DNA of 64,000 nt, taken from positions 111,699-175,698 of IMG/VR virus record IMGVR_UViG_3300028800_000060. One strand, given 5' to 3'. The position numbers and the translations under genes are program-made. Below are positions 26,706 through 43,634 of this stretch, one piece after another. This DNA is from a virus. Position 1 is the first letter of the stretch. Each line of letters begins with the position of its first letter. The notes under the pieces were generated by a model, which was not told the origin of the DNA, searched no databases, and saw only the letters and a list, made by a program, of their open reading frames with translations.

Positions 26706-26779
26706 GTTCCTTTGTTTGCGTTATTATAACGTTTTCCTTGTTGTGCCGGATAGATGTGCGTGATATACTTGTAATTGAT

Positions 26780-26870
26780 GCTGGCAGAGGCCGCCAAGTT
26801 TCGAAGGGTGACTTGGAGCGTGCAAGTGGATCATATTCAACGCATGACACCCGGGGCGGCTCTGCGCAGC
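26780..26870 (+). ncRNA. Putative structured leader RNA
   Basis: After TATACT -10 box (26764): GCTGGCAGAGGCCGCC pairs with GGCGGCTCTGCGCAGC; alternative inner stem CCAAGT/ACTTGG. Confidence 0.35.
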
Positions 26871-26898
26871 AGGTGAATAGTCTAATTTAGGAGAAAAT

Positions 26899-28672
26899 AT
26901 GATAGAAAACGCGCGCAAAAATTTTGTTACCGTCCACGAAGTGGGCGCTCAAAGAGAAAAGCTGTCCTCACAAATTCCAAATCATCAAATGTTCACTGGG
27001 CAAATTGCTGGTTATCCTAACCAGTTATTCGTTAAATTGGATGATGCAATTTGGTCGTTGGATGCTGAAGTTGGTTCAGAACCCGGTAATTATTGGATTT
27101 CTCCCGACTGCCCGATTAAGAACTACAACACGGTGACGAAAATTACTGTTACCGTGGAAAAGTAAGGATACACCCATGTCAGTAGCGGCGCTTTCATTGG
27201 AAACACTCTCCTCAAAAGACGAACACGCAATTGCGGGATTTGGAGTTAACGACTACAAAAAAGACATTCCCGTAAGCAATTATGAATTCCTTGTATTCTC
27301 TGTGGAGACTGAGACTCAAGGATGTTCGGAAGAAAATGAAATAGAACGAACTTGGCATGCGGTGTATCAAGGTACCCGATTCGGTCCCTATGAAACCAAA
27401 GCCGAATTAATGGATAAAATGTGCATGCATTTCTCTCTGGAACTCCCCGAATATTGCAAAAGTTAGGAGATTATGATGTCCACCTTACGCGAAGATATCA
27501 AGAAACTGAATAACGGAGAAACCATTACACGCACATTCCCGTGTGGTAATGTTGTTTCAATTACAGCCCGCAAGATTTTAACGCGCACATATGGATATGT
27601 GATTAGTTCCACCGATCCTTCGTATTTTGTAACTGATGATCCGAGTCAGCAGAACCAAACGTGGCCCATGTATGATTCCAAAACATTCGTGTTTTTTATT
27701 GAAGTGGATGCTTTGGAGGGTTTGCTGATGCTTGTCCGAGCATTGGTTATCAATAACCGGAAATTGAATCGTCTTTAATACCCATTTCGTGGAGAACTCT
27801 ATGTCTCCTAAAGACCCGCAGCAGATTTTACTTCGGTTGATGGGTAGAACTTCCAATATTGGAAGTTCTACCATCCTCGGTCAGGCATTAGTTTATCTCC
27901 AATATGGAGAAGAAGCGTTCAAGCGGATATATCGTAGTGGTAGAATAGGGTCCTCGGTAGATAAGTATTTTGAAGGTTCTTCCAAAGAATGGAAATTGAC
28001 ACCACTCTCTTAGTGCGATATCATCTGAATATGAGCACATTACAGCAACTCATCCGAAAGATGGTCGATGACGATGGTTTATGGCCATCTCAGATGGAAG
28101 ATCAATTGAAGGAGATGGGCTTCAAATTCTATGACCTTGTAGTTGAAATCGACTACCTTACGCGAAAACCACGCCAATGAAACGCAAATACTTTTCCATC
28201 CGAAAATATATGGGTGATGATATCTATTCCTGGGCAGTTTTCCGGAAAGGGCAGAGCCAACCGGTTTGCACAGGATGTGGAAAGAGTGAAGCCACACATC
28301 ACGCCAACAACCTGGAACGCCGCGAAGCTCTCAAGGAGATAAAATAACATGATGAAACGGAAACCCAAGGAAGAAAAGCGTTTTGTGGCATTGGCCGATG
28401 CTTTATCCCTCACGGTACCACTTGCCGAAGAACTGTGTCGGGCTGCTGAAAAAACGTGGGCACTCATTGGTCCCGATTGCCTCAATGCCTGTGATGGTCG
28501 TATGAGCCGGGATGAAGTAGTTGAAGTGGTGATGGATGCCGATCATATCCGGACAAACACTCGGAATCTTTCGGCTGTGCTTCATGAAGTCCTTAAGCAC
28601 TGGGAATATTTTCCCATCATTGACATTCTCCTCAGGGAATTTGTGTTTGTGTATAAGTGGTACGAAATATAA
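26899..28672 (+). CDS. Run of small hypothetical genes (26899-27165, 27176-27466, 27473-27778, 27789-28013, 28031-28180, 28177-~28347, 28349-28672)
   Basis: Co-oriented, RBS-bearing or leaderless (TTGACA-17-TATCAT at 27996-28024). Confidence 0.6.
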
Positions 28673-28716
28673 GGAAGATGATTGACTTCCTAATTTAAAC
28701 GTGCGAGAATAAGATT

Positions 28717-29103
28717 ATGAAAAACAACATTCAATTGATCCTCGATTTAGTTCGTGACCTGCCGCAATTGGAGTTAACGGGAAGCCGTTATTTCAATACC
28801 GCCACTCAATCATCGGATTGGGACTTCATGTTGGATTGCGAATTTGAGGAAAAGATTCCTGTTGACTTCGTGAAGGTTTCGGAACCCTCGTATGACGGCG
28901 ATCCGTTGATTTGTGGCGTGTATTTTTCGGCACTCAGGGATACTCACATCCAGCTTTTGAATTCCTATGACATGCCATTGAAACGGAAGGCTCAAGAGAT
29001 TCTCTACGAGTCCGGCGCCTTGTGTGGTGTTTCCAAACAGCAAGCCCGCCGAATTTGGAACGCCGTCATCCGCGCGTTGTTAGTTGATACCTACACATAT
29101 TGA
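28717..29103 (+). CDS. Minimal nucleotidyltransferase (Pol-beta superfamily)
   Basis: LTGSRYF......SDWDF (GS..DxD) motif; leaderless promoter TTGACT-17-GAGAAT at 28682-28710. Confidence 0.7.
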   Translation: MKNNIQLILDLVRDLPQLELTGSRYFNTATQSSDWDFMLDCEFEEKIPVDFVKVSEPSYDGDPLICGVYFSALRDTHIQLLNSYDMPLKRKAQEILYESGALCGVSKQQARRIWNAVIRALLVDTYTY

Positions 29104-29223
29104 TTCACTCCCAGAAGACAACTAGATCCTCTTCCATGAGGATCTGGTTGTCTTCCAAAGTCATGTTATTATAACGATATTACTGTTGCTAAACCGATTT
29201 GAGACGTGATAATATAGAATGAT

Positions 29224-29439
29224 ATGAAGATTACCACAATGTATGGAGAAGTTATTTTTGATGACATGTGCGGACGCATGATCGGTGCAATCTGGCAAGT
29301 TGGTGAATTCGAAAACAGAGCGTATCGTGCCCGCATTTATAAGGAATTTGGTAATGGAATTTATAAATCCAAAACCAATTTATTTGAAACGAGAGAGGAA
29401 GCCTTAAAGTGGATTGCAAACAGCAATACGGAAATGTGA
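29224..29439 (+). CDS. Hypothetical protein
   Basis: ORF followed by hairpin ATTGCAACC/GGTTGCAAT plus T tract (29442-29467). Confidence 0.55.
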   Translation: MKITTMYGEVIFDDMCGRMIGAIWQVGEFENRAYRARIYKEFGNGIYKSKTNLFETREEALKWIANSNTEM

Positions 29440-29656
29440 TTATTGCAACCATTTCGGTTGCAATTTTACTCTGGTTCCTACCATTTTATGCGGGAGCGTT
29501 CCTAGTTATTCTATGCGGCGCATACGCCGTCTATTGTGTGAGCCGAGGAAAATAAACCGCAAATCTTTTTAAGGGATCTATTAGGGCATATTGACAACTG
29601 CCGTCTAGCATGCTAGAATTATAAATGTAGAGAGAAAGAACAACAGGAGAATTTAT

Positions 29657-30205
29657 ATGAGTTTCAAGCCTATTGAAGGACACACCTCGCTTTTTCGCGC
29701 CACCGTTCTGTCGGCAGCGCAGGCCGCCACCGTCCAACGCTTCATTGAAGCCAATGGTGGTGATCCCGTGATCCGTAACAAGGATCTTCACACCATTGCC
29801 CAGACCTTGCTCGGGATGAAGTTTTGCCCGTACTTTATTGGGAAAAATGATGCTCTCAAGATCAAGAACCAACCTGGAATGTATGATCTGAGCCGTGTCC
29901 GGGCGAGTACTAAGCCCGAGCCGGTGAAGAAGGTGAAGCCGGCAAAGAAGACCAAGAAGGTGAAGAATCCTGATCCCGCCGAGCCGGCTGTGACCGAACC
30001 CGAACCTGCGCCCGCGGAAACTCCCGTGACCGTGGAACCGGCAACTGCTCCGACTCCGAAGCCGGCAAAGAAGACCAAGAAGGCCGGCAAGGCGAAGCCG
30101 AAGAAGGAAGCGAAGGCGAAGAAGGAAGCAAAGACTTCCACCGAGGAAGTAACACCTGAAGTTCCTGTTGAAATGGTTGTGGGCGAGGACGAGCCCAGTT
30201 TGTAA
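29657..30205 (+). CDS. Protein with globular N-domain and Lys/Ala/Pro-rich (histone H1-like) tail; paralog of 39899-40369
   Basis: Promoter TTGACA-17-TAGAAT (29591-29619), AGGAG RBS; KPAKKTKK repeats; downstream hairpin GAGGGCCAC/GTGGCCCTC. Confidence 0.75.
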   Translation: MSFKPIEGHTSLFRATVLSAAQAATVQRFIEANGGDPVIRNKDLHTIAQTLLGMKFCPYFIGKNDALKIKNQPGMYDLSRVRASTKPEPVKKVKPAKKTKKVKNPDPAEPAVTEPEPAPAETPVTVEPATAPTPKPAKKTKKAGKAKPKKEAKAKKEAKTSTEEVTPEVPVEMVVGEDEPSL

Positions 30206-30346
30206 TATAACCAACGCCGTGAGGGCCACCAATTGGTGTGGCCCTCCTCTCGGTAAGAAATGAAGTCTTTGTCCAAGGCCACATTATTATAACGCTTTCC
30301 GCATTTTCTTATTGAGTTCCTAATTCAATTCGACTATCATTGAAAT

Positions 30347-31502
30347 ATGACGCCCTTAGAACAAACTCAAAAAGAGATTACCCTCGCTGTTAAGATCTTG
30401 GATCTCTTGATAAAGAACACCGAATACTACGGGTCTTACCGGCTTCGTCGGGCTCGCCGCAGCCTTTTGGAGAGAAACAATATGACGGCGCATATGAGTT
30501 ATCCTAAAGCCGATCCCGAAATCGTCCCCACCGAAGGCAAGTCGGGTTTCAAGTACGTTACTCCCGTTAGCATTTGCATCCATTCCCGTATGGCAACCGG
30601 GGGCCGGGGCGGCCTGCGAATGGTTACCCGCTAAGGAGAAAAAATGCCCAAGTTTTTCTATAATTGGTTATGCTCGCTTTCTGACGAACAAGCCGTCGAA
30701 ATGTGGGAATACTTCGACGAATCATTCACCAACTGCGAAGATGTTGTGGCACACATTTGCATCTCGCATCCGGAAGTATATACTGCATTGTGCTTCGATC
30801 CGGATGACCTGAATCCGAAAGTTGAAATCCCGAGGTCATAAAATGGCAGCAACTAATAAACGCACAAAGAAATCCAAAAAGTCCGAGGAGAAGGTTTTTG
30901 TTACCGACCTTCTACATCCGGAACGTTTCGATGTAGTGGAAATTTCAGGAACAAACCCCGAAAAGATTGTTGGTTCTGCAACCAACCAATCAGGTGTTTA
31001 CGCGTTACGCGACCAATTGCAAGCTGAATTGGATGCCAAGGAAGTTCCACCCGCTGTCAAACGATTCGCTGTGAGGTTTTAAAAATGGACGCCCAAATCC
31101 GCCAAGAATTGTTGTACGCGATCGGTCAAATTCGGGAACTACTGTTAGTGACCAGCAAGGAACTCGAAGATGAATATATGGTCGAGGCTGTCGAAAAAAC
31201 CTTCGACCTACTGAAGGATACAGTTCAACGAGCCATAAATATTTGGAATGAGGAACACAATGACGACATTTAAACTCGTTCCAGTAGGTGAAAAACCTTT
31301 TCGTATCGGGCAATATCAGCCGGCACCCACAACAGGAAGTTATTTTTCGGGTCATTACAATCTGGATATGTGTGATAGCCCATCTTCCAACAATCGGTAC
31401 ACTCACTTCGATGTGATACAGATTGTAACCGATTCGAGGGCCCAGGCGCAAGAAATCGTCGATATCCTTAATGCCCATTACGGAAAGAAGACCGAAAGAT
31501 GA
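30347..31502 (+). CDS. Run of small hypothetical genes (30347-30634, 30644-30841, 30843-31082, 31085-31273, 31260-31502)
   Basis: Packed operon with AGGAG/GAGG RBS. Confidence 0.6.
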
Positions 31503-31597
31503 CCCCCTTGGAGAGACAAATCTCTCCAAGGGCATCATTATTATAAATAACACCACGAGATTGGTTCGCCAACTCGACAGACACTAAGGAGAACACA

Positions 31598-31918
31598 ATG
31601 AAGAAGCTATTAGCTGTATTGATCTTGGCAGCAGGAACTATGTTCGCACAATTTTCAGTTGGTATTCACATTGGCCCGATGCCAAGAGTACGTATTGAAC
31701 ACCAATCACGTCGTCCGAATGTCCGTTCCATTTGGATCGCAGGACATTGGGATGTAGTCAACAACCATTATGTCTGGCATTCAGGCTATTGGACCCAACC
31801 ACCATATGAAGGCGCACGTTGGATCGCTCCGTCACATGATGGTAAAATGTACCACGATGGTCATTGGGATGGCGACAAAGGCCGCAGAGAAGATGACCAC
31901 GGCAAACATCGTCACTAA
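31598..31918 (+). CDS. Exported YXWGXW/WxxGxW-repeat protein
   Basis: Signal peptide; WIAGHW, YVWHSGYW, W..P, Y..GHW repeats. Confidence 0.8.
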   Translation: MKKLLAVLILAAGTMFAQFSVGIHIGPMPRVRIEHQSRRPNVRSIWIAGHWDVVNNHYVWHSGYWTQPPYEGARWIAPSHDGKMYHDGHWDGDKGRREDDHGKHRH

Positions 31919-31930
31919 AGGAGAAATAAA

Positions 31931-32080
31931 ATGTTACTACTATTGATTCTGCTTTTGTTGTTATTCGGTTGTGGTGGTGGATACTACGGCTACAATCGTT
32001 ACGGATGGGGCGGCGGCACCGGCATGGGACTCGGCACAGTTCTGCTTATTGTCGTAATCTTCGCTCTGTTCTTTAGGTAA
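31931..32080 (+). CDS. Small Gly-rich membrane protein, DUF3309-like (not in ORF track)
   Basis: AGGAG RBS; MLLLLILLLLLFGCGGGYYGYNRYGWGGGTGMGLGTVLLIVVIFALFFR. Confidence 0.75.
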   Translation: MLLLLILLLLLFGCGGGYYGYNRYGWGGGTGMGLGTVLLIVVIFALFFR

Positions 32081-32193
32081 GTGCTTGGCAGTTTGTTGTT
32101 TGTGATGTGCATTCTTGGAGATGACCCCTTGGAGAGACAAATCTCTCCAAGGGCAATGTTATTATAAATAACACCAGGGAGGAGGTGAAACTA

Positions 32194-32268
32194 ATGTTAG
32201 ATTTCTTTTTGGAAATATTGGGTTTTAGGCCTGCAATGGGTATGGATGCCGGTAGTTTCGAAGAATAA
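32194..32268 (+). CDS. 24-aa peptide under late promoter
   Basis: GGAGGAGGTG RBS; MLDFFLEILGFRPAMGMDAGSFEE*; followed by terminator. Confidence 0.5.
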   Translation: MLDFFLEILGFRPAMGMDAGSFEE

Positions 32269-32273
32269 ACACA

Positions 32274-32303
32274 AAAGCCCCGTTATCATAACGGGGCTTT
32301 TTT
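32274..32303 (+). terminator. Rho-independent terminator centred on a GTTATCATAAC palindrome
   Basis: AAAAGCCCCGTTATCATAACGGGGCTTTTTT. Confidence 0.75.
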
Positions 32304-32432
32304 CGTCTCCATTCAAATGGTTCCTTTCTGACATGAATAGTATCACTTGATTCGGCGAGTGTGTGGAAACGTCTTGGAATGACTTGTTTTTCTTGTTGAC
32401 AGCGCAATAAGATAGATGATATGATTTTGAAT

Positions 32433-34137
32433 ATGCGAAATCAACAGCGAAACATTCTACTCCGTATTATCCACGAATACGTGGGCATATCGTATGACCA
32501 ATTGTCCCGCTTGGAAAAGAATGTGTTAAGCCTTGCTGCCACCGGTACTTCCGTGGTGATCACTCTCGATGAATTTGGCGAAATCAATCTGCCGGCTGAA
32601 GTAGCGGAGCTCTTACTCATTTGAGGAACAAATGAATACCGATAAATGCGCGAAGGAATCCGGAGGATGTGGGAAACCGGTAGAGAAATGTAAATGTTGG
32701 TCAACATTACATCATCCGTGGGACTGTGGATGCCATCGGTGTTTATCCGCGGCGCAACGGTGGCAAACGCCCAAAAAGAGGAATAAATGACCGCGCGTGA
32801 AATGCAGGGGGCTATCGGACAACAGGTTTATCTTCGCGATGGAGATGGATGTTGTTCCTTATTGTTCCTATGCACGGTCGTAGATGTAAAAACCGGTTGG
32901 GGGAAGCCAAGGTTTCTCGTAACACCCGTATCTGGTAAAGGAGAAAGATGGGTTGAATTTTCGAGTATTGAACCCGTCAAATCGGAGATTTCATATCAAT
33001 CAAATGCGGAAGTAACCGTAAATAAAACAACGGCCCGATTGACACCGAGCGTCACTTGTGTTAGTATTAAAAAGTTATGAGACTGAAAGACGAGAAATCT
33101 TCCGCCGTGATCGCCGCATATACGGTGGGAACACCCATCCAAAAGATCTACGCCAACCATCGTGTAGGACACGAGGAGATGTACAAGATGTTGCGCAAGA
33201 GAAGTATTCCTCTCCGTGAACTGCACAAAGGTGCTTGTGCGGCGCGCCAGTCAAATAAGATGTCTTGCCGGATTCTTTATTTGCCTGTGGGAGATCCATC
33301 TCCACAGGGAATTATCGATGGAATGACCAAACTGGGTTCCGTAGTAGAATACCGAGTCAGGAACTAGCCATGAAACTAACACGGCAACAGATTGATTTAT
33401 TTGTCGAAGAATTGCGACGGACTGCCTCCTCTTGGGAACGGTACGGTAATACGGATAACACCGATCGTGATATCCGGGAAGATTTACAAGTAATTGCCCG
33501 AAACTGTAACGCGTCTTAAAAGGAAAAGAAAATGACCTGCCAATATCGATATTACGGACCTGGTCAAGGTCCGTCCGAGAATTCGCGCACATGTGGCATG
33601 CCTTGTGGAGAAAAGTATTGTTCGGCGCATGCACACACCTACCATTCATCCGCGGCACAGGCTCGTCAGGAGTTTTACGTGCATCCGACGTGTGCAGGCC
33701 TGGAAGCTCTCGACGACAAGGACGTATTCGATGAGTTGGTGCTGGCCAATACCTACCCTCAAGACTGCCCGGACTGCGGCACTCCGATGGTGTGCGTAGC
33801 AGTGGGGTCGTCTACTACGACCTGGGAGTGCCAGCAATGTCACCCCGGGTTTACGGAAGCAAGTTTGACAATGTAACGCAAATTAAAGGAAAAGAAAATG
33901 ACACAAAATACTCCTGCAAAGGAACTAAAGACGCCGGCGGCCCATATCCCCGGGAAGGCCGATTACCGAATCGATCAAATCCGCCGGTATATGCGGCGGC
34001 ATGCCGGCTTCGCGGTTTTCATCAATGAAACCGTTGAAGTTAAAATGTTGCTAGCTGATGTTTTCGCCGGGGGATTGACCCGGGCGGAAATCAAGCAGTT
34101 TTTCAACAATGCCAGAAAGGTAGGAATGAACCAGTGA
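32433..34137 (+). CDS. Run of small hypothetical genes (32433-32624, 32787-33080, 33077-33367 HTH-like, 33370-33519, 33532-33876 Zn-ribbon CPDCG..CQQC, 33898-34137)
   Basis: Co-oriented packed ORFs; promoter TTGACA-18-TATGAT at 32396-32425. Confidence 0.6.
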
Positions 34138-34742
34138 CATTAGAACAATTGCAACAAAGATTCCCTGATGCCACTGAGGACACATGGTATCAGCACTCCA
34201 ATGGGGGTGGATGGATCCAGAATACGGCACGCGTGGAAACATCGGTGTATGTGGGTCCGGATGCTACGGTATCCGGAAATGCCCGGGTATCCGGAAATAC
34301 CTGGGTATCCGGAAACGCCCAGGTATTCGGAAATGCCTTTGTATCCGGAAACGCCCAGGTAACCGGAGATGCCCAGGTGTTTGGAAATGCCCGGGTATCC
34401 GGAGATGCCTGGGTATCCGGAAACGCCCAGGTAACCGGAGATGCCCTGGTATCCGGAAACGCCCAGGTATCCAGAAATGCCCGGGTGTTTGGAAATGCCC
34501 AGGTATCCGGAAATACCTGGGTATCCGGAGATTCATGGGAAACTTCACCCCTTCAGATCCAAGGCACTCGACATTTCCTCAATATGACAACCAAGTCTCT
34601 ATTGAAAATTGGATGCCATTCACATACCATCCAATGGTGGTTGAATAATTATAGGATCATTGGACAAAAAGAAGGATATACTCCGGATCAAATAAAGGAG
34701 TACAAAAAGTATATTGATCTCTTTAAATCATTGTATATTTGA
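34134..34742 (+). CDS. LbH hexapeptide-repeat protein, paralog 4, with C-terminal IGCH..W domain
   Basis: GTG start overlapping upstream stop; hexads; LKIGCHSHTIQWW...QIKEY tail. Confidence 0.85.
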   Translation: MTLEQLQQRFPDATEDTWYQHSNGGGWIQNTARVETSVYVGPDATVSGNARVSGNTWVSGNAQVFGNAFVSGNAQVTGDAQVFGNARVSGDAWVSGNAQVTGDALVSGNAQVSRNARVFGNAQVSGNTWVSGDSWETSPLQIQGTRHFLNMTTKSLLKIGCHSHTIQWWLNNYRIIGQKEGYTPDQIKEYKKYIDLFKSLYI

Positions 34743-34791
34743 TCCGCATTTTGTTGTTGCGGCTAGTTTTATACTCTGCTATCATCAAAAT

Positions 34792-36024
34792 ATGAAAAAG
34801 CAGACTGTTCGAAACGACTTTGCCGTGAAGCACGCCGCTTGCTTTACTACATTTTCCACGTCGCGCGCCGCGTTCGACTACAACAAAGCGATGTTAGGAT
34901 CGGTGTTTATGGTCCGCACCCAGAACGGTTGGAAGAACTTTTTCTAGGATCCGAGTTCGGGGAGGCTGCCGCGCAAGGTGTTGCCGTTGCTATGACGCCA
35001 ACCGAGGTCCCGACAGCCTCCTCCGAAGGTAACCCAAAATGCAAACTGAATACGATTTGACGGCAGTAGCTTCTCAATGTAAAATCAAAGGCATTCCGCG
35101 GGCAATTGCACAGTATTCGCATCCCGGAGATGCTTTCCTTTTTCTGGTCCTTATCGAACAGGACCACAACTTCGTTATATGGACATATAATGCTCAGGTT
35201 ACTGGTTTTTCCGATGGGCATTATTTTCATTTCTACCCCGACATTTTCTTTGGCAGGCCGGATCGTCGGCATGCATTCTCGGAAGCACTGGCGTGCTACA
35301 AATATCGACTCGGGCTTTATTGCCACTAAAGGAGTAAAATGACAGCACAACAATCCAGGAAGCTCACACTCGGGACCGTCGTGTCACTGACGAGTACTTT
35401 CGAACTGAAGAAACCACAACGCCATAGTGCAATGGTGGTTGCATTGAATGAGCGGGAACATTGGGACCCGTTGGTGACTGTCCGTGTCCGGGATGGACGT
35501 ATTTTGGACTTCGACGCTCACTGGGTCCACACGGACGAGACAATCAAGGACCTCCTTCTTCGAGGATGGCGCAAACAAATTACATCAATGGAAGAGGATC
35601 AAATCCGTTTCATTCTCCGAGAGGAGGATATGTAAAATGGAAAACTACAACATTTTGGATTACTACGAGTCTGATTACGATGGTTGGGATGAAGAAGACG
35701 AGTTTGATATCTTCGAGGACTCCTACGGAGGTTACTCCGGTCTCCCAATCATCGATGACGATGACGATGACGATGAGTGGTTCTAACAATTTCCTTCTAG
35801 GAAGGTGAATCCAAATGGATAATCAAGTTACCACTCTATACCTGAATCAGCACGATAACCAATACTACCTCTCCACGAAAGATTCTTATGGACCCACTTA
35901 TTTTCGTGAGGGATCAAAAGTATTGTGGACCGGTGGTCCCACATGGTTTAAATCGGAGGCAGAGGCCCTTCGGGCAGTTTACAATAGTCCCGGTACTTTC
36001 ATCGTGAAGCCGGGACGCCTCTAG
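34792..36024 (+). CDS. Run of small hypothetical genes (34792-34947, 35039-35329, 35339-35635, 35815-36024)
   Basis: Co-oriented ORFs with RBS or leaderless promoter (TATCAT at 34780). Confidence 0.55.
35637..35786 (+). CDS. Extremely acidic 49-aa peptide
   Basis: GAGGAGG upstream; 21 of 49 residues D/E, no K/R/H. Confidence 0.6.
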   Translation: MENYNILDYYESDYDGWDEEDEFDIFEDSYGGYSGLPIIDDDDDDDEWF

Positions 36025-36275
36025 GCGCGCATAAAACCAAAATAATCCAAAATACCGATTCATACCATTCAAAATAAAGGCATAGGAAGGGAAAGATTCC
36101 ATATAAAGGAACCTTTCCTATTCCATGGACTCGTTATTATAAGTGGCCCATGAGTCTCACCATTCAATCGATTCCTTAAGTGATATCGTAGTATCATTTT
36201 CTTTTGGCAACGAGCTTGGATCGTCTGGGAATGCTCTTGACATTCATAGTATGATTTGATATCATTGATAATGAT

Positions 36276-36635
36276 ATGACACTAGAACAATTGCAACAAA
36301 AATTCCCTCATGCCACTGAGGACACATGGCATCAACACACCAACGGATCCGGTTGGATCCAGAATACAGCACAGGTGGCATCATCGGTGTACGTGGGTGA
36401 GGATGCTCTGGTATACGAGAATGCCTCAGTATCTGGATTTGCCACGGTGACCGGAAACGCCCGGATATATGGAAACGCCGGCATCTCTGGAAACGCCCTT
36501 GTATACGGAAATGCCCGCGTTTTTGGTCATGCTCGGGTATCCGAAGATACTTGGATGGCCGGAGATGTCGAGGTATCTGGAACTGCCACAGTATCCGGAA
36601 ATTCTCAGGTATTTGGAAATGTTCGTTTGTGTTAA
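36276..36635 (+). CDS. LbH hexapeptide-repeat protein, paralog 5
   Basis: Promoter TTGACA-17-TATCAT at 36237-36265; conserved N-terminus. Confidence 0.85.
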   Translation: MTLEQLQQKFPHATEDTWHQHTNGSGWIQNTAQVASSVYVGEDALVYENASVSGFATVTGNARIYGNAGISGNALVYGNARVFGHARVSEDTWMAGDVEVSGTATVSGNSQVFGNVRLC

Positions 36636-36649
36636 TAGGGATATAGTAT

Positions 36650-37141
36650 ATGACACTACAACAATTGCAACAAAAATTCCCTGATGCCACTGAGGACACA
36701 TGGCATCAGCACACCAACGGATCCGGTTGGATCAAGAATACGGCATATGTGGAACCATCGGTGTATGTGGGTCCGGAGGCTACGGTATCCGGAGATGCCT
36801 GGGTATCCGGAAAGGCGCGCATCTATGGTAATGCCCAAATATTTGGTAATGCCTGGATATGCGGAAATGTTTGGGTATACGACGTTGCCTGGGTATACGA
36901 AGATGCCTTTTTGTGCGGAGATGCCCAGGTGTCCGGAACTGCCTCGGTATTTGGCTATGCCTGGATCTATGATAATGCCTGGGTATCCGAAAATGCCCAA
37001 ATATTCGGAAAAGCTCAGATATACCAGAATGCCGGCGTGTCCGGACACGCATGCGTTTGTGATAACGCTCAGGTATTCGGAAATGCATTCGTATCCGGAT
37101 ACGCCCATATGTGCGGAGATGCCTTTGTGTGTGGAATATAA
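36650..37141 (+). CDS. LbH hexapeptide-repeat protein, paralog 6
   Basis: Conserved N-terminus and hexads. Confidence 0.85.
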   Translation: MTLQQLQQKFPDATEDTWHQHTNGSGWIKNTAYVEPSVYVGPEATVSGDAWVSGKARIYGNAQIFGNAWICGNVWVYDVAWVYEDAFLCGDAQVSGTASVFGYAWIYDNAWVSENAQIFGKAQIYQNAGVSGHACVCDNAQVFGNAFVSGYAHMCGDAFVCGI

Positions 37142-37191
37142 TAATGCGTTCTTGACATCCTTATTCTGATTTATTATCATTGTTGACATAT

Positions 37192-37608
37192 ATGACACTT
37201 GATATTGATGTTAAGAAGTACAAGGATGAAATCACGGTCAACGACCTAGTGATCCGGCTCTCCAATATACCCGAAGATCATCCGGAGGATATGCAATATC
37301 TCCGTGATGAGAACAGCCGTGCCTGGGAAACGGTCGAACGCCATGACCAGTCAAACCGCAAAAAGGACCTCGTCATTCGTGAAATGCAGAACGAACTTGA
37401 TCAACTCCGGCTCGCTCAGTCCGTCCCGGGTCCGACCGGTCCGACCGTGATCGAATGGCTCAAGAATGTCCAGAACGGTGAGGAGTACAAGAAGTCCGAC
37501 AAGATTAACCTCATCAAGGCCGTCCGACTTCTCACCTCGATGAGTTTGAAAGATTCGAAGGACCTGGTCGACACCTATGTTCCGAGTGCCACGCTCAAGC
37601 TTCTTTAA
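37192..37608 (+). CDS. Protein with C-terminal ribosomal bL12 (L7/L12) CTD-like domain
   Basis: DKINLIKAVRLLTSMSLKDSKDLVD matches KIxVIKxVRxxTGLGLKEAKxLVE; promoter TTGACA-17-TATCAT at 37152-37180. Confidence 0.7.
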   Translation: MTLDIDVKKYKDEITVNDLVIRLSNIPEDHPEDMQYLRDENSRAWETVERHDQSNRKKDLVIREMQNELDQLRLAQSVPGPTGPTVIEWLKNVQNGEEYKKSDKINLIKAVRLLTSMSLKDSKDLVDTYVPSATLKLL

Positions 37609-37620
37609 TATCCAACCAAT

Positions 37621-37654
37621 CCGGCACCGGAGAGTTGTGGCTCTCCGGTGCCGG
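37621..37654 (+). terminator. 14-bp GC-rich hairpin (no U tract)
   Basis: CCGGCACCGGAGAG-TTGTGG-CTCTCCGGTGCCGG. Confidence 0.6.
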
Positions 37655-37723
37655 GTACCATATACACTGTTATGATAACAATCTCCTCTTGACTAACCGG
37701 CCATGGATATGTTATCATGTATT

Positions 37724-38724
37724 ATGATCGTTAAGATGCGGCTCCATATGAAGCACGAAAAGAAACGAATATCCGAAGCCGAAAGATTGGAACAACTTCT
37801 CAAAAAGGCTTCCAAAGATGCTGCCGAGATCCTCGCTTCCGTGGATCCCAAAGCTGCATTCAACCGAAAACTGATGAATATCCTGAAGGGACGGTAATTC
37901 ATTTTGATACACATTTTATTTTGTTCTCCGTTGAATCACAAACACGACACGGATACCCTACACGTCCGATACTATCTGTCCATAGGATATCATTCGTATT
38001 ACGAGCCGAGTTATTTCCGTGCCGGACAAGGACTGTATATGTCTGCGCCGACATATTTCCTTACTAAAGAGGAAGCCCATTCAGCCGGCGCGGCAATGGA
38101 TTATGATGTCATTGACCGTGACTGCTAGATAAACGCTTGTTCATCCATAATAGTTAACTATCCAGTTAAGTAATTATGGAGTTAAACCATATGGATATGG
38201 AATATTTCAACAATAAATGGTTTAAATTATATCGCCGTGCGTATGAGAGAGTCGGAAGGGGATGATGGAAGAAAATAGAGTGATATAGGGATGGCTAGCC
38301 TTGGATCCCGGTGTCTTATCATTAGGGCCTTTGGATCTCTATTAAGTCCTTTGGATCCCTATGCCGTTAACCCAACACTCCAACCCCTCCGGAACACCAA
38401 CGGCCCCAGTGTACCACAAAGGGATCTAATAGCACGGGATCTATTAGTACATCCACATTTACCTATATTCTTCCGTATTTTTTATGCTACAATAGACTTA
38501 TGATTGACACAAAGACATTCATAGCCCGTCCTGATTCGTTTGATATCACGATCGGTGAGTGGATCGGCCTCTTTGGCGCATCCTATCGGGATAATATCCT
38601 GGATAAACCGGGAACTGAGGTTATTATGTCCCGTGCCAAGAAAACCGAGGATCCTGTTACCGCTCACAATACAGGAATCGATTGGAATTCCCTTCCGTCG
38701 GATGAAGCCGGAGCTACGGACTAA
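37724..38724 (+). CDS. Small hypothetical genes (37724-37897, 37904-38128, 38500-38724)
   Basis: Leaderless starts behind TATCAT (37713) and TACAAT (38488). Confidence 0.5.
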
Positions 38725-39039
38725 AGGAGAACCATATGAAATCCCTAAGTTGGATGGTCCTAATTACCTGGATGGCTCCGTGTCCCATATTACAAACCGC
38801 GGTTATTATGGTTATCCTGTTCCGTATGTCCTTTTCCTTTGGAATGCGGAACTTCTAAGGATCCCGGAGCCCTGGAGGCTCCATGGAACACGTTATCATA
38901 ACACACGGAGCGGCATAACAGTCGGAATAGGGAATATCCATACTTTCGTTATAATAACGTGGCCATGGAAAACCCCACCGGATCCCGAAGGACCCGATGG
39001 GGATTCGTACAACCCGGGCATTTCCGGACACCCAGGGAT

Positions 39040-39430
39040 CTAATTGTCCCAGGGAGTGATGGACGTGATTCTATAGCTTCCCATCAAAGCCCGCAACTCC
39101 TTAGCCGCCAGCTTATTGATGGATTCCTCCAGAAAGCGGAATGCTTCCACGGAGATTTCACCGTCTAACATCATGATATCCAGTTTGATTTGAAAGTGGT
39201 TCATCGTTTTTCTCCTGATTCTATTAGAGCCCTCGGATCTCTTGATGGATCCGGGCTTCAGTGGCCACAAGACGGCGACGGCGAGCTTCAATGGCTGCCA
39301 GCCGGTCGCGGAGATCTCCTCGATACTCGGGCTTCAGACTGTCAAGGCAGTTATAGCCCATCGCCAGCGCCAGATTACAGTCCCGGACTGTATTGATTTC
39401 GTTGATTTCCGGATACGTTTTCATTTCCAT
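39040..39430 (-). CDS. Two small hypothetical genes (39040-39204, 39224-39430)
   Basis: AGGAG RBS before ATG 39204; co-oriented with upstream minus-strand operon. Confidence 0.55.
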
Positions 39431-39436
39431 AAGGAT

Positions 39437-39802
39437 CTATTGTACCTCCTGGGCCCTGTGGGCTTTATCTTCGATCATCTGGACAAGCTGCTTACGATAC
39501 TTGCCGATGCGGATCACGGGGGTGGATCCCCGATGCCACAGCTTGCGGCACTGTTGCAGTTGCTCGCCGTTCAAGCGGCGCCCAGCCATAAGCTGTCGGG
39601 CATACTGGCCAAACAGGCGGGCATCGGCCTGTTGGAGCCCACGTTCGTTATCGTCAATCGTGCATCCGGATGCACGTTCTAACTCAGTCTGACGTGCATG
39701 CAGTGCTAATAGAGCCTTCTCCAGCCACGTGTCGTTCGTTTCGAGCTGATGTAACACCTTTTCTGGTGTCCAATCAGTGAGTTTACGATAATTCACGTAC
39801 AT
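39437..39802 (-). CDS. Conserved-looking phage hypothetical protein
   Basis: WLEKALLALHARQT..E....T...N..G...AD...KY.KQL pattern recalled from large phages; GGAG RBS. Confidence 0.7.
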   Translation of the reverse strand: MYVNYRKLTDWTPEKVLHQLETNDTWLEKALLALHARQTELERASGCTIDDNERGLQQADARLFGQYARQLMAGRRLNGEQLQQCRKLWHRGSTPVIRIGKYRKQLVQMIEDKAHRAQEVQ

Positions 39803-39815
39803 AAGATCTCCGTTC

Positions 39816-39892
39816 TATTAGCGCCCCTAGAGTGCGTCAACACTGAGGAGCGCTAATACAACGTCCCCCACGATAAGACGTGGGGGACGTTG
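39816..39892. other. Two adjacent intergenic hairpins
   Basis: TATTAGCGC...GCGCTAATA and CAACGTCCCCCACG-ATAAGA-CGTGGGGGACGTTG (39859-39892). Confidence 0.65.
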
Positions 39893-39898
39893 CGTACT

Positions 39899-40369
39899 CT
39901 AGAGAGCGGATTCGATAGCGTTGAGTATGCTCTCTTCATCGACGGCGGGAGCGTCGATGAGCTTCACTTCAGTGTTGACGACGGGGGCTGGAGTCTTCTT
40001 TGCTTTCGACTCGCGACGTGGGCGCGATTCGCGCTTTGCTTTCACTGCGGGGGACGCGGGAGCGTCGATGAGCTTCACTTCAGTGTTGACGACGGGGGCC
40101 GGGGCGGACTTGGCGGACTTCGCGACGTGCAGACGAGACAAATCGAAGTTACTGGTCCCCTTGACGCGGAGTGCCGCGTTTTTGCCAATAAAATAGTGCA
40201 CATATCGGTGCCCGAATTGCTCTGAAGCGATGACGTGCAGTATTTTGCTCTGGATGACGGGGTTGCCCCCGTTCGCTGCGATGTACTTCTGCGTGATATC
40301 GAACTGTGCCTGGTTGACTGCTTTCGCTGCGAACAGAGACGCGTGTCCTTCGAGCTTGGTGAATGACAT
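39899..40369 (-). CDS. Paralog of 29657-30205 with basic, repeated tail
   Basis: MSF...EGH.SLF.A...ANGG.PVI..K.LH.IA...YFIGKN.AL...DLSR shared; APVVNTEVKLIDAPA twice. Confidence 0.8.
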   Translation of the reverse strand: MSFTKLEGHASLFAAKAVNQAQFDITQKYIAANGGNPVIQSKILHVIASEQFGHRYVHYFIGKNAALRVKGTSNFDLSRLHVAKSAKSAPAPVVNTEVKLIDAPASPAVKAKRESRPRRESKAKKTPAPVVNTEVKLIDAPAVDEESILNAIESAL

Positions 40370-40439
40370 AGTGGTTTTCTCTCTTTTCTTGACGTTATCG
40401 TTATCGTAAGCTCACTTTGGCTGTGGAGCTTAGTCTACT

Positions 40440-40553
40440 CTACTTGAGAGAAGAGTAGATCGTACGAAACGCAGCAAACGCGATGCAAAGTGCGAACACT
40501 ACAACGATGTCTGTTACGTTCGCGCGTACTACACTGAGAAGCGTTTCAATCAT
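40440..40553 (-). CDS. 37-aa membrane peptide lacking G/P/W (not in ORF track)
   Basis: MIETLLSVVRANVTDIVVVFALCIAFAAFRTIYSSLK*; TG-C-TATGCT -10-like box upstream on minus strand. Confidence 0.45.
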   Translation of the reverse strand: MIETLLSVVRANVTDIVVVFALCIAFAAFRTIYSSLK

Positions 40554-41068
40554 TGTCTTTGTCTCGTTTCTGCGTTTTTTGTACTAGATCGAGCATAGCA
40601 ACAAAAAAGCGAAAAAAGAGCGAACAAAACATTAAAAATCATTAATTTTTTGATGCACACTTGTAATACTCAAATTCCAGACGCTTAGACGTGCTCTAGA
40701 GACGCTTACGTGCTCTGTATCGACGCTATGACATAGACGTGCTCCAGACGTCTGCAAACGCAAAAGAACAGCAGTCTATGTCTAGATCTAGACTACTGCG
40801 TTATGCGACTCTTGAGCGAACAAAGAGCGAAATAGCGATTCTGAGCGTTTCTGAGCGTTTTTTGACGTGTTAAGCGATTCATGCGTGCTTTGTGTCAACT
40901 ATGCTCAACAAATCGCTTGGAACGTCTGCAAACGCAAAAGAACAGCATTCTACGAACGCTTCAGAACTGCATTTGACGTCTTAGCGTTCGCATGCGGAAA
41001 AAACAGTGTAATTTTTACACATAGTACTTGAAGTACTGCGAATTTTTCGTTTTCGCTTTTTATTCTAC

Positions 41069-41098
41069 TTGACACGTTTTGTCCATACTCGCTATGCT
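41069..41098 (+). promoter_or_regulatory. sigma70-type promoter of island genes
   Basis: TTGACA-18-TATGCT with T-tract UP element; ATG at 41108. Confidence 0.65.
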
Positions 41099-41107
41099 GA
41101 AATCACT

Positions 41108-41461
41108 ATGAAAACTATGCAAGTTATCGTATCAGACGCAGTAGACGAAAAGACGTTCAGCGTCGATTTCGACGAAACGATCATTGACAACAGAGCATGC
41201 TATAGCATGCTCGACAAAGTGACGTACGCGTACACTGTTGAATATGCGAACGCTCGTAACGCTTGTTACGAATTCGCAGCTATGCATTTCAAGCAAGTGC
41301 TCTCGAACTGCATTGAATTCGAGAGTGAAGACGAGCTTTACATGAGCGACATTCGCGCGCTGTTCAGCATAGCGAACACGCTAACGTCTGAGTTCTTCGT
41401 TGATATCGTTACGCGCGTACTCTTCTCTGATAGCTGTAGCTGTGATATATCTGTCAAGTAG
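41108..41461 (+). CDS. Acidic hypothetical protein with no Gly/Pro/Trp
   Basis: 117-aa ORF directly behind promoter. Confidence 0.65.
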   Translation: MKTMQVIVSDAVDEKTFSVDFDETIIDNRACYSMLDKVTYAYTVEYANARNACYEFAAMHFKQVLSNCIEFESEDELYMSDIRALFSIANTLTSEFFVDIVTRVLFSDSCSCDISVK

Positions 41462-41522
41462 TCATAGCGTTCAATACAGAGCACTGTTTATTCTACGTAT
41501 ACAGTGCTCTCAGTTAAACGCT

Positions 41523-41789
41523 ATGACTACTGACAGAATGAGCAAAGAACAGTATAAGCACGTTATGCGTACGCGTTTCGAGCGTCTAAGCTTTCAGCGA
41601 TGTGCGAACTGCGACGAAATGACGCTGTATCGCGATGTGCAAACTGAACGCGTAGCGTGCATTGAATGCTCGTACGTCGAATACGAAGCACACGTGCACG
41701 TGACGCATGCGCACACGTCGATTTCAGAGTGCAACTACGATGCTAAGACTATCGCAGCACGTATCATCGCACGTGCACGTGCACACTAG
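41523..41789 (+). CDS. Zn-ribbon-like protein with no Gly/Pro/Trp (start 41523 or 41538)
   Basis: CANC-x15-CIEC. Confidence 0.6.
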   Translation: MTTDRMSKEQYKHVMRTRFERLSFQRCANCDEMTLYRDVQTERVACIECSYVEYEAHVHVTHAHTSISECNYDAKTIAARIIARARAH

Positions 41790-41803
41790 TGCAGAATTCA
41801 ACG

Positions 41804-41997
41804 TGTGATTGGAGTTCACACTGTGCTTTGGAGGCACATGTGATTGGAGTTCACACGTCAAGTGTTACTTTACGTGTGCGGTGGTTGTACACTGTGCTTT
41901 GGAGGCACATGTGATTGGAGTTCACACGTCAAGTGTTACTTTACGTGTGCGGTGGTTGTACACTGTGCTTTGGAGGCACATGTGATTGGAGTTCACA
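41804..41997. repeat. 71-bp tandem repeat (~2.5 units) built of TGTG-N9-CACA palindromes
   Basis: CACTGTGCTTTGGAGGCACATGTGATTGGAGTTCACA at 41819, 41890, 41961; TGTGATTGGAGTTCACA also at 41804. Confidence 0.9.
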
Positions 41998-42364
41998 GTG
42001 TACGGCAGTTATTGGGGGTTCCCTGGGTATATGCTTTCGCATGATAGGCAAAACGCAAAGGCCGCAAAGGCCCCAAAGGTCCCAAAAACATGGGAAATCC
42101 AAACCAAGCTACAATCGTGAAACTTCAATGACAGTAGTGTCTATATCAGGATTCTCTATTCCAAAAAATTTTCTGGCAACTTAGATTTAGGAATTTTTCC
42201 TTGAGGATTATCACATTTATGTAAAATAAATTTTTTTGGTGGTATTTCACCATTGCAGAGATGAATTAAAATATTAGGATTTCTAGAAAGACGATCATTG
42301 TACCACAAACAGCCGCCAACAAGTGGTCGTTTTATTTACTTTAGTCCAGGTGCCATAACGTACT

Positions 42365-43634
42365 CTATTCCAAAAATTTTTTCTGAACATAATTGAGATT
42401 CCTGAAATCCACAAAATTTTCCCCAATTCCTAAAGAAAAATTAATAGCATCTAGTTCCTTTGCAAAGGCATACTCCCATGTGGATTGATCAAAATATTCT
42501 GCTCCTAATTCCAGTGCATATGCATAATCTGAAGCCAACCAGTTTTTAATTTTAACTCGATACATGTAATCGGCCCAGAAGTATTTCACGGAGTTCAGAT
42601 GCATAGGGACTCCTATTCAATAATAGCTTAAGATAGAATAGGTAAATATCGTTAATAAATTTTTTGTGTGCCATAACGCTAAAAAAATTTTCGGAACCAG
42701 GATTCTTTCTGTTTTGTAGCAAGAGTATGTAAAAAACCCCCAAGTTTGACTAGACAGCCGCAACAAATATCTTTATCATATAGGGAAGCAATCCTAACTT
42801 TGGATATCTGATATTTTCCTAAATCGGTCTGGCCGCAATAATCGCAGCGATATACGGTTTTACTTGTGTGTGCCATAATGTACTCTATTCCAAAAATTTT
42901 TTCTGGGCCTATAAACCTGCCCACCACAACTCTCACATTTGTACCATTCCGAACCCGATATCCGAGGATAAATAGATTTCTTAGAATGACCGAACCAATA
43001 ACATTTAAAGGAACTCCAGTAATTCTGAGAAGAACTCTTTTTGAAGTCCCAGGCAGGATTTAAAGCACTTAATAGGGAAATCAATACAAAAAGGGAAATG
43101 CCAAAAATAATGCGAACGTTGTTACTCATAATACCTTCCTTTTAGCCAAAAAGATACCTTTAAGGGATCTTAATTTACCAAGAATCAGACAAACATCAAA
43201 CCATTCGGCACTACCGAAATCCTTTTGATGATTCTTCATTAAATCTAGTACCGAACATTCAATAAATCTTAGTTCTTCGGTAATAAATCTTAGTTCTTCG
43301 GCAATCATAGGAATTTCTGGGCCTTTGATAAGATATCGTACCATTTAGAGATGTGATCGTTGGCATCCCCGACAAATTCACCATGTTCATCGTGAACATA
43401 AAGCCTCAAATCTACAACAGATAAGGCACGCCGGAAGGCCTCTAATAATTCTTTTAGATCTAATGATGATCCAGTTTCATTTGCAGGACTCATGGATTCC
43501 AAATGTTTGAAAACTGGGCCATATTCTTCTACGGCGCGCATATATTGTTCCCATGTCTCTAGTAGTCTAGCACAACACTTATTTTCTGGTAATTCACCTA
43601 TGAAAGAACAATTCGGACATTTTAATATTGGCAT
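42365..43634 (-). CDS. Run of small hypothetical genes (42365-42604, 42679-42876 Zn-finger-like, 42860-43129, 43126-43308, 43305-43634)
   Basis: Overlapping co-oriented minus-strand ORFs. Confidence 0.55.

What the first reader, a model, noticed from the sequence alone, without database searches (positions are those of the whole stretch)
40440..41789. Three island ORFs with no Gly, Pro or Trp: candidate first-wave anti-defence proteins
Seen: 41108-41461 (117 aa, acidic), 41523-41789 (88 aa) and 40553-40440 (37 aa, hydrophobic) contain no G (GGN), P (CCN) or W (TGG), the three residues that cannot be coded without GG/CC. The Zn-ribbon reads CANCD and CIECS where such motifs often use CPxCG. 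No GGAG Shine-Dalgarno is possible, and 41108 starts almost directly behind a TTGACA/TATGCT promoter. Inference: the DNA-level constraint overrides protein sequence. Small, acidic, immediately expressed proteins in PAM-free DNA fit anti-CRISPR, anti-restriction or host-takeover roles.
Basis: partly seen in the sequence, partly recalled or inferred. Interest (0 to 1): 0.78.

Follow-up and report, generated by a model that had tools for sequence, protein, structure and literature searches.

The report
GG/CC-free early genes in T4-like phage
Three small phage genes are written entirely without the DNA steps GG and CC, so their proteins have no glycine, proline or tryptophan. Related phages keep the same rule, which suggests that something still unidentified in infected cells reads that two-letter step.

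Summary
**Observation confirmed.** Window 40426-41810 has 5 GG/CC where about 130 are expected. It includes a 728-bp run with none; the longest run elsewhere in the 175.7-kb T4-like phage genome is 120 bp.

**The ORFs are real genes.**
- The 88-aa Zn-ribbon gene has orthologues in two other uncultured phages (61% and 54% identity). Against the closer one dN/dS is 0.19 and dS about 1.5.
- The 37-aa membrane peptide has a weak homologue.
- The acidic 117-aa protein is an ORFan. In a relative its place is taken by an unrelated acidic protein that is also GG/CC-free.

**The ban is selected at the nucleotide level.**
- Codon junctions: 1 GG/CC observed, 35 expected.
- ORFs of three phages: 1 observed, 193 expected.
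- Non-coding parts of the islands are depleted about 6-fold.
- The ban ends within 1-26 nt of each stop codon. Leftover sites lie in or upstream of promoter spacers.
- A GG/CC-rich gene sits between banned genes in one relative.

The genes follow sigma70-type promoters 6-9 nt before the ATG, so they look leaderless and need no Shine-Dalgarno.

The missing G/P/W is a by-product of the ban. An anti-defence role is plausible but untested, and the pattern fits simple PAM avoidance poorly. This scan has found similar islands in unrelated phages, so the phenomenon recurs and remains unexplained.

The parts
40426..41810 (.). GG/CC-depleted island: 5 GG/CC in 1385 bp, all intergenic
   Evidence: GG o/e 0.03, CC o/e 0.04; unique in the 175.7-kb genome
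40440..40553 (-). 37-aa hydrophobic (single-TM-like) peptide gene with no GG/CC; first gene of the leftward unit
   Evidence: GRAVY 1.38. Weak homologue at L003:6863-7003, E 8e-5 in a pairwise comparison, also GG/CC-free
40554..41107 (.). 554-bp divergent control region with short direct repeats; 5 GG/CC where 46 are expected
   Evidence: Fold z-scores of only -2.5 to -2.8. No Rfam match. The syntenic non-coding stretch in relative G001 is also GG/CC-poor, o/e 0.19
41069..41098 (+). sigma70-type promoter TTGACA-N18-TATGCT, 9 nt before ATG 41108; its spacer holds the residual CC at 41083
41108..41461 (+). 117-aa acidic ORFan (pI 4.2) with no GG/CC; gene callers use ATG 41117, giving 114 aa
   Evidence: Only identical copies on 17 metagenome contigs. 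AlphaFold model unusable, pLDDT 39
41450..41537 (+). Long GG/CC-free hairpin that pairs the stop codon of the 117-aa gene with the ATG of the 88-aa gene
   Evidence: -54.7 kcal/mol, z -10. Inverted repeat with 34-nt arms. An analogous inverted repeat lies before the orthologue in L013
41523..41789 (+). 88-aa Zn-ribbon protein (C27, C30, C46, C49) with a conserved C-terminal helix; no GG/CC
   Evidence: Orthologues P0003 (61% identity) and P0004 (54%). dN/dS 0.19. Model pLDDT 67. Best structural matches are TFIIS/Rpb9/TFIIB Zn ribbons, Z 4.0 or less
41801..42013 (+). Three tandem 71-bp repeats, each with a terminator-like hairpin that contains GG; they mark the end of the rightward unit
   Evidence: Two or three copies in otherwise identical metagenome contigs
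39899..40369 (-). 156-aa basic protein gene (context only). It is GG/CC-rich and lies next to the island here, but between GG/CC-free genes in L003
   Evidence: 35 in-codon and 15 junction GG/CC

Best explanation
The three ORFs are real, small, immediate-early genes in a hyperplastic region of an uncultured T4-like myovirus. The region holds two divergent units.
- Leftward: the membrane peptide, followed by ordinary genes.
- Rightward: the acidic 117-aa protein, then a long hairpin, then the 88-aa Zn-ribbon protein, ending at tandem terminators.

Host sigma70 RNA polymerase starts at a consensus-like promoter only 6-9 nt before the ATG. The messages are therefore leaderless or nearly so and need no Shine-Dalgarno, which could not be written without GG.

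Purifying selection keeps the expressed part of these units free of the GG:CC step. The ban runs from about -20 in the promoter to the stop codon. The absence of Gly, Pro and Trp is a by-product of it.

The most likely reason is that these genes must still be transcribed and translated correctly in the presence of a factor that marks, blocks or damages nucleic acid at GG/CC while it is being expressed, either on melted or transcribed DNA or on the transcript. By the logic that an antidote must be immune to the poison, their products probably neutralise that factor or otherwise take over the host in the first minutes.

Shown: the genes are real, the ban is selected at the nucleotide level, it is conserved, and its boundaries are as described.

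For: - **Real gene.** The Zn-ribbon gene has dN/dS 0.19 and dS about 1.5 against L003. A third orthologue lies in L013.
- **Ban conserved.** L003 is GG/CC-free over 6478-7011 and 7856-8176. L013 is GG/CC-free over 1-523, and there the ban stops exactly where homology stops.
- **Nucleotide level.** Codon junctions carry 1 GG/CC where 34.9 are expected.
- **Specific to this step.** No other 3-mer or 4-mer is strongly depleted.
- **Tied to expression.** ORFs carry 1 GG/CC where 193 are expected. Non-coding parts of the islands carry 10 where 63 are expected (Fisher P 4e-5).
- **Boundaries.** The nearest upstream GG/CC lies 20-46 nt before the ATG, in or upstream of the promoter spacer and never between the -10 box and the ATG. 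GG/CC return 1-26 nt after each stop codon, and the terminator hairpins contain GG.
- **Module-specific.** The homologue of the 156-aa gene is GG/CC-rich although it sits between banned genes in L003.
- **Promoter-to-ATG spacing.** It is 9, 6, 7 and 6 nt in the four promoter-gene pairs that the scan scored, and 6 nt in a fifth read by eye.
- **Precedent.** A dinucleotide-level reader used against T-even phages is known: CmdT ADP-ribosylates GA in ssRNA and blocks translation (PMC11618068).
Against: - No reader has been identified.
- Both GG and CC are absent from every message. A single-stranded RNA reader would therefore need two rules, or both strands would have to matter.
- The 554-bp control region is also depleted 9-fold without a known transcript.
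- The closest complete relative, G001, keeps only a non-coding GG/CC-poor stretch and no banned genes. The module is therefore dispensable, and the non-coding part may be the core feature.
- Transcription starts, timing and translation are inferred from sequence only. No expression data could be obtained.
- The proteins give no functional clue.
- The comparison rests on only three island-bearing lineages.
Confidence: 0.55

Rival explanations
1. This is avoidance of duplex-DNA immunity. The island is kept free of CRISPR PAMs (CC for type I-F, NGG for type II-A) or of the sites of short-motif restriction or nicking enzymes. Its DNA then cannot be targeted or cut before its anti-defence products are made.
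For: - The ban is strand-symmetric, as expected for a duplex reader.
- Non-coding DNA is also depleted 6-9-fold.
- Genome-wide PAM depletion in phages is documented (PMC4246573).
- The genes are small, early and accessory.
Against: - GG/CC are tolerated in promoter spacers in all three phages. A cut or a protospacer there would still silence the gene.
- The ban ends at the stop codons rather than at arbitrary DNA boundaries.
- In L003 a GG/CC-rich gene and intergenic stretch split the island.
- Protecting 1.4 kb does not protect the other 174 kb, which carries GG/CC above expectation (o/e 1.16 and 1.30).
- The host and its defence systems are unknown.
Confidence: 0.15
2. The phage's own DNA-marking or host-shut-off enzyme acts at GG/CC-containing words. 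The island must stay unmarked or uncut so that unmodified host RNA polymerase can read it.
For: - The genome encodes a beta-class N6/N4 DNA methyltransferase closest to the H. pylori DpnA-like enzyme 5hek (E 5e-37), next to unannotated ORFs. From my own recall, unchecked here, 5hek is M1.HpyAVI, which methylates GAGG.
- An earlier AI note on SSU5-like phage-plasmids proposed the same idea (e1-5629546).
Against: - A 4-bp methylation word would not require banning every GG and CC.
- No dCMP hydroxymethylase/ThyA-family gene and no DpdA/TGT-family gene is present in the genome.
- All other early genes, including the neighbour in the same leftward unit, carry many GG/CC and must also be read.
Confidence: 0.12
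3. The island has a foreign origin or reflects a mutational footprint. It was imported from a donor with this composition, or it was eroded by a CC-specific deaminase. There is no present selection on GG/CC.
For: - The island lies in a compositionally distinct segment (GC 45-53% against 37.7% for the genome).
- Its codon usage is CG-rich and unlike the rest of the genome.
- The region is shuffled between relatives.
Against: - The ban persists through dS of about 1.5 between orthologues and holds in three lineages.
- CG and GC are enriched (o/e 1.8 and 1.6) rather than C and G being lost, which is the opposite of deamination decay.
- The boundaries coincide with the ends of genes.
- Neighbouring genes of the same segment are GG/CC-rich.
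Confidence: 0.06
4. The ORFs are chance open frames in a non-coding GG/CC-free element such as an origin or an RNA gene. Stop codons contain no GG or CC, so the bias does not itself create open frames.
For: - The 117-aa ORF has no homologue.
- G001 keeps only a non-coding GG/CC-poor stretch.
Against: - The Zn-ribbon ORF is under purifying selection, with four invariant Cys and a conserved C-terminal helix in three phages.
- In every case the ORFs start just behind a promoter.
- GG/CC depletion is stricter inside the ORFs than outside them.
Confidence: 0.03

Closest known systems
Motif avoidance in phage genomes (restriction-site avoidance; CRISPR PAM depletion, PMC4246573)
   Same: Selection removes a short word from phage DNA. 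The logic of escaping a sequence reader is the same.
   Different: The known cases are statistical, genome-wide and involve words of 3-6 bp. Here a dinucleotide step is banned almost absolutely, but only in a 1.4-kb gene module. The ban is strong enough to delete three amino acids from the proteins and to forbid a Shine-Dalgarno.
First-step-transfer (pre-early) DNA of phage T5 and the leading early region of T7 with ocr (from my own knowledge, not checked here)
   Same: A short stretch of early genes lacks the sites of the host's nucleases and encodes the first counter-measures.
   Different: Those regions lie at the leading physical end of the genome. This island is internal in the contig, 22 kb from its end, in a T4-like phage, a type that normally packages by the headful (from my own knowledge). 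The ban follows gene boundaries and can be interrupted by an ordinary gene (L003).
Site-free messages under sequence-specific RNA toxins: GCU-free mqsRA and ACA-less mRNAs under MazF (from my own knowledge); CmdT, which ADP-ribosylates GA in ssRNA against T-even phages (PMC11618068)
   Same: Only messages lacking the toxin's 2-3-nt word stay translatable. This fits a ban that runs from the message start to the stop codon.
   Different: Those rules are strand-specific. Here both GG and CC are absent from each message, GA is not depleted (o/e 1.09-1.17), and non-coding DNA is also partly purged.
PeSL cassettes (promoter-early stem-loops) of hyperplastic regions in T4-type phages (PMC2839356, PMC4122927)
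   Same: Small ORFan early genes lie in a hyperplastic region, flanked by composite stem-loop and early-promoter elements. They are shuffled and inverted between relatives.
   Different: PeSLs explain the mobility of such genes, not a dinucleotide ban. No compositional rule of this kind is described in the abstract of PMC4122927, the only part I read.
GG/CC-free islands noted earlier in this scan in unrelated phages (e1-5352931, e1-5629546, e1-5693167)
   Same: They share the same banned step, a similar size (0.9-1.7 kb), Gly/Pro/Trp-free early proteins and conservation among relatives.
   Different: The phage groups differ (phage-plasmids and a sediment phage), and two of the three notes place the island at a DNA terminus. 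The word-based look-ups with the 88-aa and 117-aa proteins matched only this genome. These are AI notes, not independent evidence.

Membership tests
Anti-CRISPR (Acr) locus | Sequence or structural relatedness to a known Acr, or a demonstrated inhibition of a Cas effector | not testable with these tools
   The libraries at hand hold no Acr models. Pfam, PHROGs and PADLOC gave nothing relevant.
Anti-CRISPR (Acr) locus | An adjacent HTH-type aca regulator gene | tested here: not met
   No HTH family was found in the island proteins or in the two flanking proteins. The second gene is a Zn ribbon.
T5-type first-step-transfer / pre-early terminal region | Location at the leading physical end of the virion DNA, inside a terminal repeat | tested here: inconclusive
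   The island lies at 152.1-153.5 kb of a 175.7-kb linear record in which no end repeats were found. The true virion ends are unknown.
PeSL cassette of T4-type hyperplastic regions | A composite stem-loop plus early sigma70-type promoter flanking small variable ORFs, with shuffling between relatives | tested here: met
   - Stem-loops at window 41450-41537 and L013 148-262.
- Promoters.
- The block holding the 156-aa gene and the TM peptide gene is inverted and moved in L003 relative to the window.
Zn-ribbon fold (TFIIS/TFIIB/Rpb9 type) | Two CxxC knuckles on a three-stranded sheet | tested here: met
   C27/C30 and C46/C49 are invariant in three orthologues. The model has strands 19-22, 35-38 and 44-46. 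The best matches are 1tfi (Z 4.0, rmsd 1.9 over 41 residues) and 1pft. This concerns the fold only. It is weak and says nothing about function.
Leaderless mRNA genes | Transcription start at or within a few nt of the AUG, and no Shine-Dalgarno | tested here: inconclusive
   The sequence layout fits. The distance from the -10 box to the ATG is 9, 6, 7 and 6 nt in four scored pairs and 6 nt in a fifth read by eye. No GG is available for a Shine-Dalgarno. Transcription starts were not measured.
HEPN_LA2681 (PF18733) | A score above the Pfam gathering threshold and the Rx4-6H catalytic motif | tested here: not met
   The 117-aa protein scores 18.3 bits against a cut-off of 27 (E 0.0015). No Rx4-6H motif is present in the sequence (read).

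The most novel reading that the evidence does not exclude
T4-like and other phages face, or deploy, a still undescribed activity that recognises the GG:CC step on nucleic acid that is being expressed. It could be a base-modifying enzyme, a deaminase, a nuclease or a roadblock protein. This module would be its antidote cassette, written so that the poison cannot touch it and expressed without a Shine-Dalgarno as leaderless mRNA. Its Zn-ribbon, acidic and membrane proteins would then be a new anti-defence or take-over set.
Probability: 0.35. Interest if true: 0.9.

Novelty: new variant of a known kind. Interest (0 to 1): 0.7.

Why it matters
A selective force strong enough to remove three amino acids and the ribosome-binding site from conserved genes implies an important reader of a two-letter DNA or RNA step in infected cells. 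Only one such system, CmdT, has been described recently.

The island gives a clean handle for finding it.

The genes are also a natural example of functional proteins built from 17 amino acids and expressed without a Shine-Dalgarno.

Tried and rejected
**Family and homologue searches**
- Pfam, PHROGs, NCBIfam and PADLOC gave nothing usable for the three proteins and their neighbours. The only hits were a sub-threshold HEPN_LA2681 match and a weak phrog_1568 match (E 2e-4) for the Zn ribbon.
- Exhaustive HMMER with the Zn-ribbon profile found only two clusters.
- Word-based searches found only the proteins themselves for the 117-aa protein and the L003 94-aa protein.
- Scans of viral contigs and metagenome contigs with the Zn-ribbon alignment found nothing more. 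The 156-aa alignment also found nothing in viral contigs.
- GenBank phages: no DNA match to the island and no tblastn match to the Zn ribbon.

**Cultured phages checked for islands**
- The 121-aa flank protein has weak homologues in Xanthomonas jumbo phages. Xoo-sp13 has no GG/CC-free island near it.
- Pelagibacter phage HTVC008M has no island in the 42-kb syntenic region.

**Structure**
- The 117-aa AlphaFold model is unusable (pLDDT 39).
- ESM Atlas look-ups were uninformative.
- Foldseek and VIA-align returned only generic Zn ribbons.

**RNA and population data**
- Rfam and tRNA scans of the window were empty.
- The control region folds only modestly better than shuffles.
- Contigs L005-L012 are 100% identical to the window apart from repeat copy number, so there are no SNPs to test.

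**Hypotheses rejected**
- A tRNA or codon-level cause (anticodon nucleases, slow Gly/Pro/Trp codons) is rejected because out-of-frame junction GG/CC are purged too.
- A RegB homologue was not found, but the control search did not ring either, so this result is uninformative.

Full report
**What is there.** The window is the last 64 kb of a 175,698-bp IMG/VR virus record. The virus is a T4-like myovirus. It carries a tail sheath, a DUF4815 structural protein and a UvrD-type helicase, and its sheath is closest to those of Pelagibacter and Sinorhizobium T4-like phages.

The stretch 40426-41810 (44% GC) has 5 GG/CC dinucleotides, all in the intergenic part. It includes a 728-bp run with none. The longest run elsewhere in the genome is 120 bp. 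GG o/e is 0.03 and CC o/e 0.04, while CG and GC are enriched (1.77 and 1.62). No other 3-mer or 4-mer is strongly depleted in the pooled islands of three phages, so the rule concerns the GG:CC step alone.

The three ORFs of the finding lie where stated and contain no G, P or W.

**The ORFs are genes.**
- *The 88-aa protein.* It has an orthologue of 61% identity (P0003) on a 27.8-kb T4-like contig, L003. It has a second orthologue of 54% identity (P0004) on L013. Between the window and L003, dS is about 1.5 and dN/dS is 0.19. Four cysteines (CxxC twice), an N-terminal helix and the C-terminal helix are invariant. The model (pLDDT 67) is a three-stranded Zn ribbon between two helices. The only structural resemblances are generic TFIIS/Rpb9/TFIIB ribbons at Z 4 or less.
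- *The 37-aa peptide.* It is hydrophobic (GRAVY 1.38) and has a weak counterpart in L003 (E 8e-5).
- *The 117-aa protein.* It is acidic (pI 4.2) and an ORFan. In L003 the same position behind the promoter is held by an unrelated acidic 94-aa ORFan that is also GG/CC-free.

**The ban is selected, nucleotide-level and gene-bound.**
- In L003 the GG/CC-free stretches are 6478-7011 and 7856-8176.
- Between them lies the homologue of the window's 156-aa gene with its terminator. That gene is GG/CC-rich in both phages, although its position and orientation differ.
- In L013 the ban runs from 1 to 523 and stops exactly where homology with the 88-aa protein stops. The C-terminal extension that follows contains P and G.
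- Shuffling synonymous codons within each gene predicts 34.9 GG/CC across codon junctions in the island genes of the three phages. One is observed. This excludes a cause at the level of tRNAs or particular codons.
- Summed over the ORFs, 1 GG/CC is seen where 193 are expected. Non-coding parts of the islands have 10 where 63 are expected, and the difference is significant (P 4e-5).
- GG/CC return 1-26 nt after each stop codon.
- Upstream, the nearest GG/CC lies 20-46 nt before the ATG. That places it in or upstream of the promoter spacer, never between the -10 box and the ATG.
- The tandem terminator-like hairpins that close the rightward unit contain GG.

**Expression layout.**
- The rightward unit starts at TTGACA-N18-TATGCT (41069-41098), 9 nt before ATG 41108.
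- In the relatives the -10 box lies 6-7 nt before the ATG for the L003 94-aa gene, the L003 Zn-ribbon gene and the L013 Zn-ribbon gene. The same spacing holds for the L003 peptide gene, read.
- These are the spacings of leaderless messages. This fits the fact that no Shine-Dalgarno can be written without GG, while neighbouring ordinary genes do have GGAG-type sites (read).
- Between the two rightward genes, a hairpin of -54.7 kcal/mol (z -10) pairs the stop codon of the first gene with the start codon of the second. L013 has an analogous inverted repeat whose arms each carry a consensus promoter.
- This stem-loop-plus-early-promoter design, and the rearrangements between relatives, match the PeSL cassettes of T4-type hyperplastic regions (PMC4122927).

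**Genome context.**
- The closest complete relative found is G001 (179.7 kb). Its homologue of the 121-aa flank protein is 69% identical.
- G001 lacks the Zn-ribbon gene. At the syntenic site it keeps only a 300-bp non-coding GG/CC-poor stretch (o/e 0.19), and it has no other island. The genes are therefore accessory, and the control region may share the constraint.
- The phage has no ThyA/dCMP-hydroxymethylase-family gene and no TGT/DpdA-family gene.
- It does have a dCMP deaminase and a beta-class DNA methyltransferase nearest to the H. pylori enzyme 5hek.

**How it most likely works.** The facts to be explained are these:
1. The ban is strand-symmetric.
2. It is near-absolute from the promoter's -10 region to the stop codon, weaker in non-coding DNA, and absent from promoter spacers and terminators.
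3. It is confined to a few early genes, while the rest of the genome has GG/CC above expectation.
4. It is conserved through saturated synonymous change.

A reader that cuts duplex DNA or uses GG/CC as a PAM explains the first fact. It explains the second and third poorly.

A reader that interferes with expression explains the second and third facts. Such a reader could be a mark or lesion that stalls or miscodes RNA polymerase, an enzyme acting on DNA melted by transcription (where one rule, for example CC in single strands, gives a symmetric ban), or a modifier of the message. It also gives the usual antidote logic: the genes that must work first must be immune.

I therefore favour an expression-coupled GG:CC reader, with these genes as an immediate-early counter-measure or take-over set (0.55). 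Duplex immunity (0.15), the phage's own mark (0.12), a foreign or mutational origin (0.06) and chance frames (0.03) follow. CmdT shows that dinucleotide-specific attack on T-even messages exists, but GA is not depleted here.

**Relation to known things and novelty.** Genome-wide motif avoidance, the site-free leading DNA of T5 and T7, and site-free messages under mRNA interferases are the nearest ideas. None describes a local, near-absolute ban on a dinucleotide that removes three amino acids and the ribosome-binding site. Two full-text searches found no such report.

Earlier AI notes of this scan describe similar GG/CC-free islands in rhizobial and SSU5-like phage-plasmids and in a sediment phage. 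The word-based look-ups with the 88-aa and 117-aa proteins matched only this genome. These notes are leads, not independent evidence. What this case adds:
- an internal location in a T4-like hyperplastic region;
- a ban that follows single genes and can be interrupted by an ordinary gene;
- boundaries at promoter and stop codon;
- a leaderless layout.

**Limits.** Only three island-bearing lineages exist in the databases. The host is unknown, no expression data could be obtained, and the proteins' functions remain inferred.

Noticed in passing
window 41801-42013: Three tandem 71-bp repeats directly after the island, each with a terminator-like hairpin. Otherwise identical metagenome contigs carry two or three copies.
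   Followed up: partly
window 42157-42173, 42366-42382, 42886-42902: An exact 16-17-nt motif, TATTCCAAAAA(A/T)TTTT, recurs three times (0.5 expected) among small minus-strand ORFs right of the island. Similar AAAAATTTTT-type words occur at the same place in L003 and L015. It may be a regulatory or PeSL-like element.
   Followed up: partly
window about 26000-42000: A segment of about 15 kb has GC 45-53% in a 37.7% GC genome and is packed with small ORFs and no long ones. It is probably a hyperplastic region of accessory early genes, and the island lies at its right edge.
   Followed up: no
window 39899-40369 (minus strand): The 156-aa basic protein (pI 9.8) has a Lys/Ala/Pro-rich tail with an internal direct repeat. 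It is conserved next to or inside the island region in all four related genomes, has no family match, and may bind DNA.
   Followed up: partly
L013:148-262: A 27-bp-stem inverted repeat whose two arms each contain the consensus promoter TTGACA-N17-TATGAT followed 6 nt later by ATG. This makes back-to-back divergent promoters. The leftward copy would give an antisense RNA or a 6-aa ORF.
   Followed up: partly
genome 58.5-61.3 kb (L014:556-3295): A block of an unannotated 325-aa ORF, a dCMP deaminase, an unannotated 234-aa ORF and a beta-class N6/N4 DNA methyltransferase closest to H. pylori 5hek (E 5e-37). The methyltransferase's specificity is unknown.
   Followed up: partly
L015:6600-6906 (G001 64.55-64.87 kb): The complete relative without the island genes keeps a 300-bp non-coding GG/CC-poor stretch (3 sites, o/e 0.19) upstream of a TTGACA-N16-TAGAAT promoter at the syntenic place.
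   Followed up: partly
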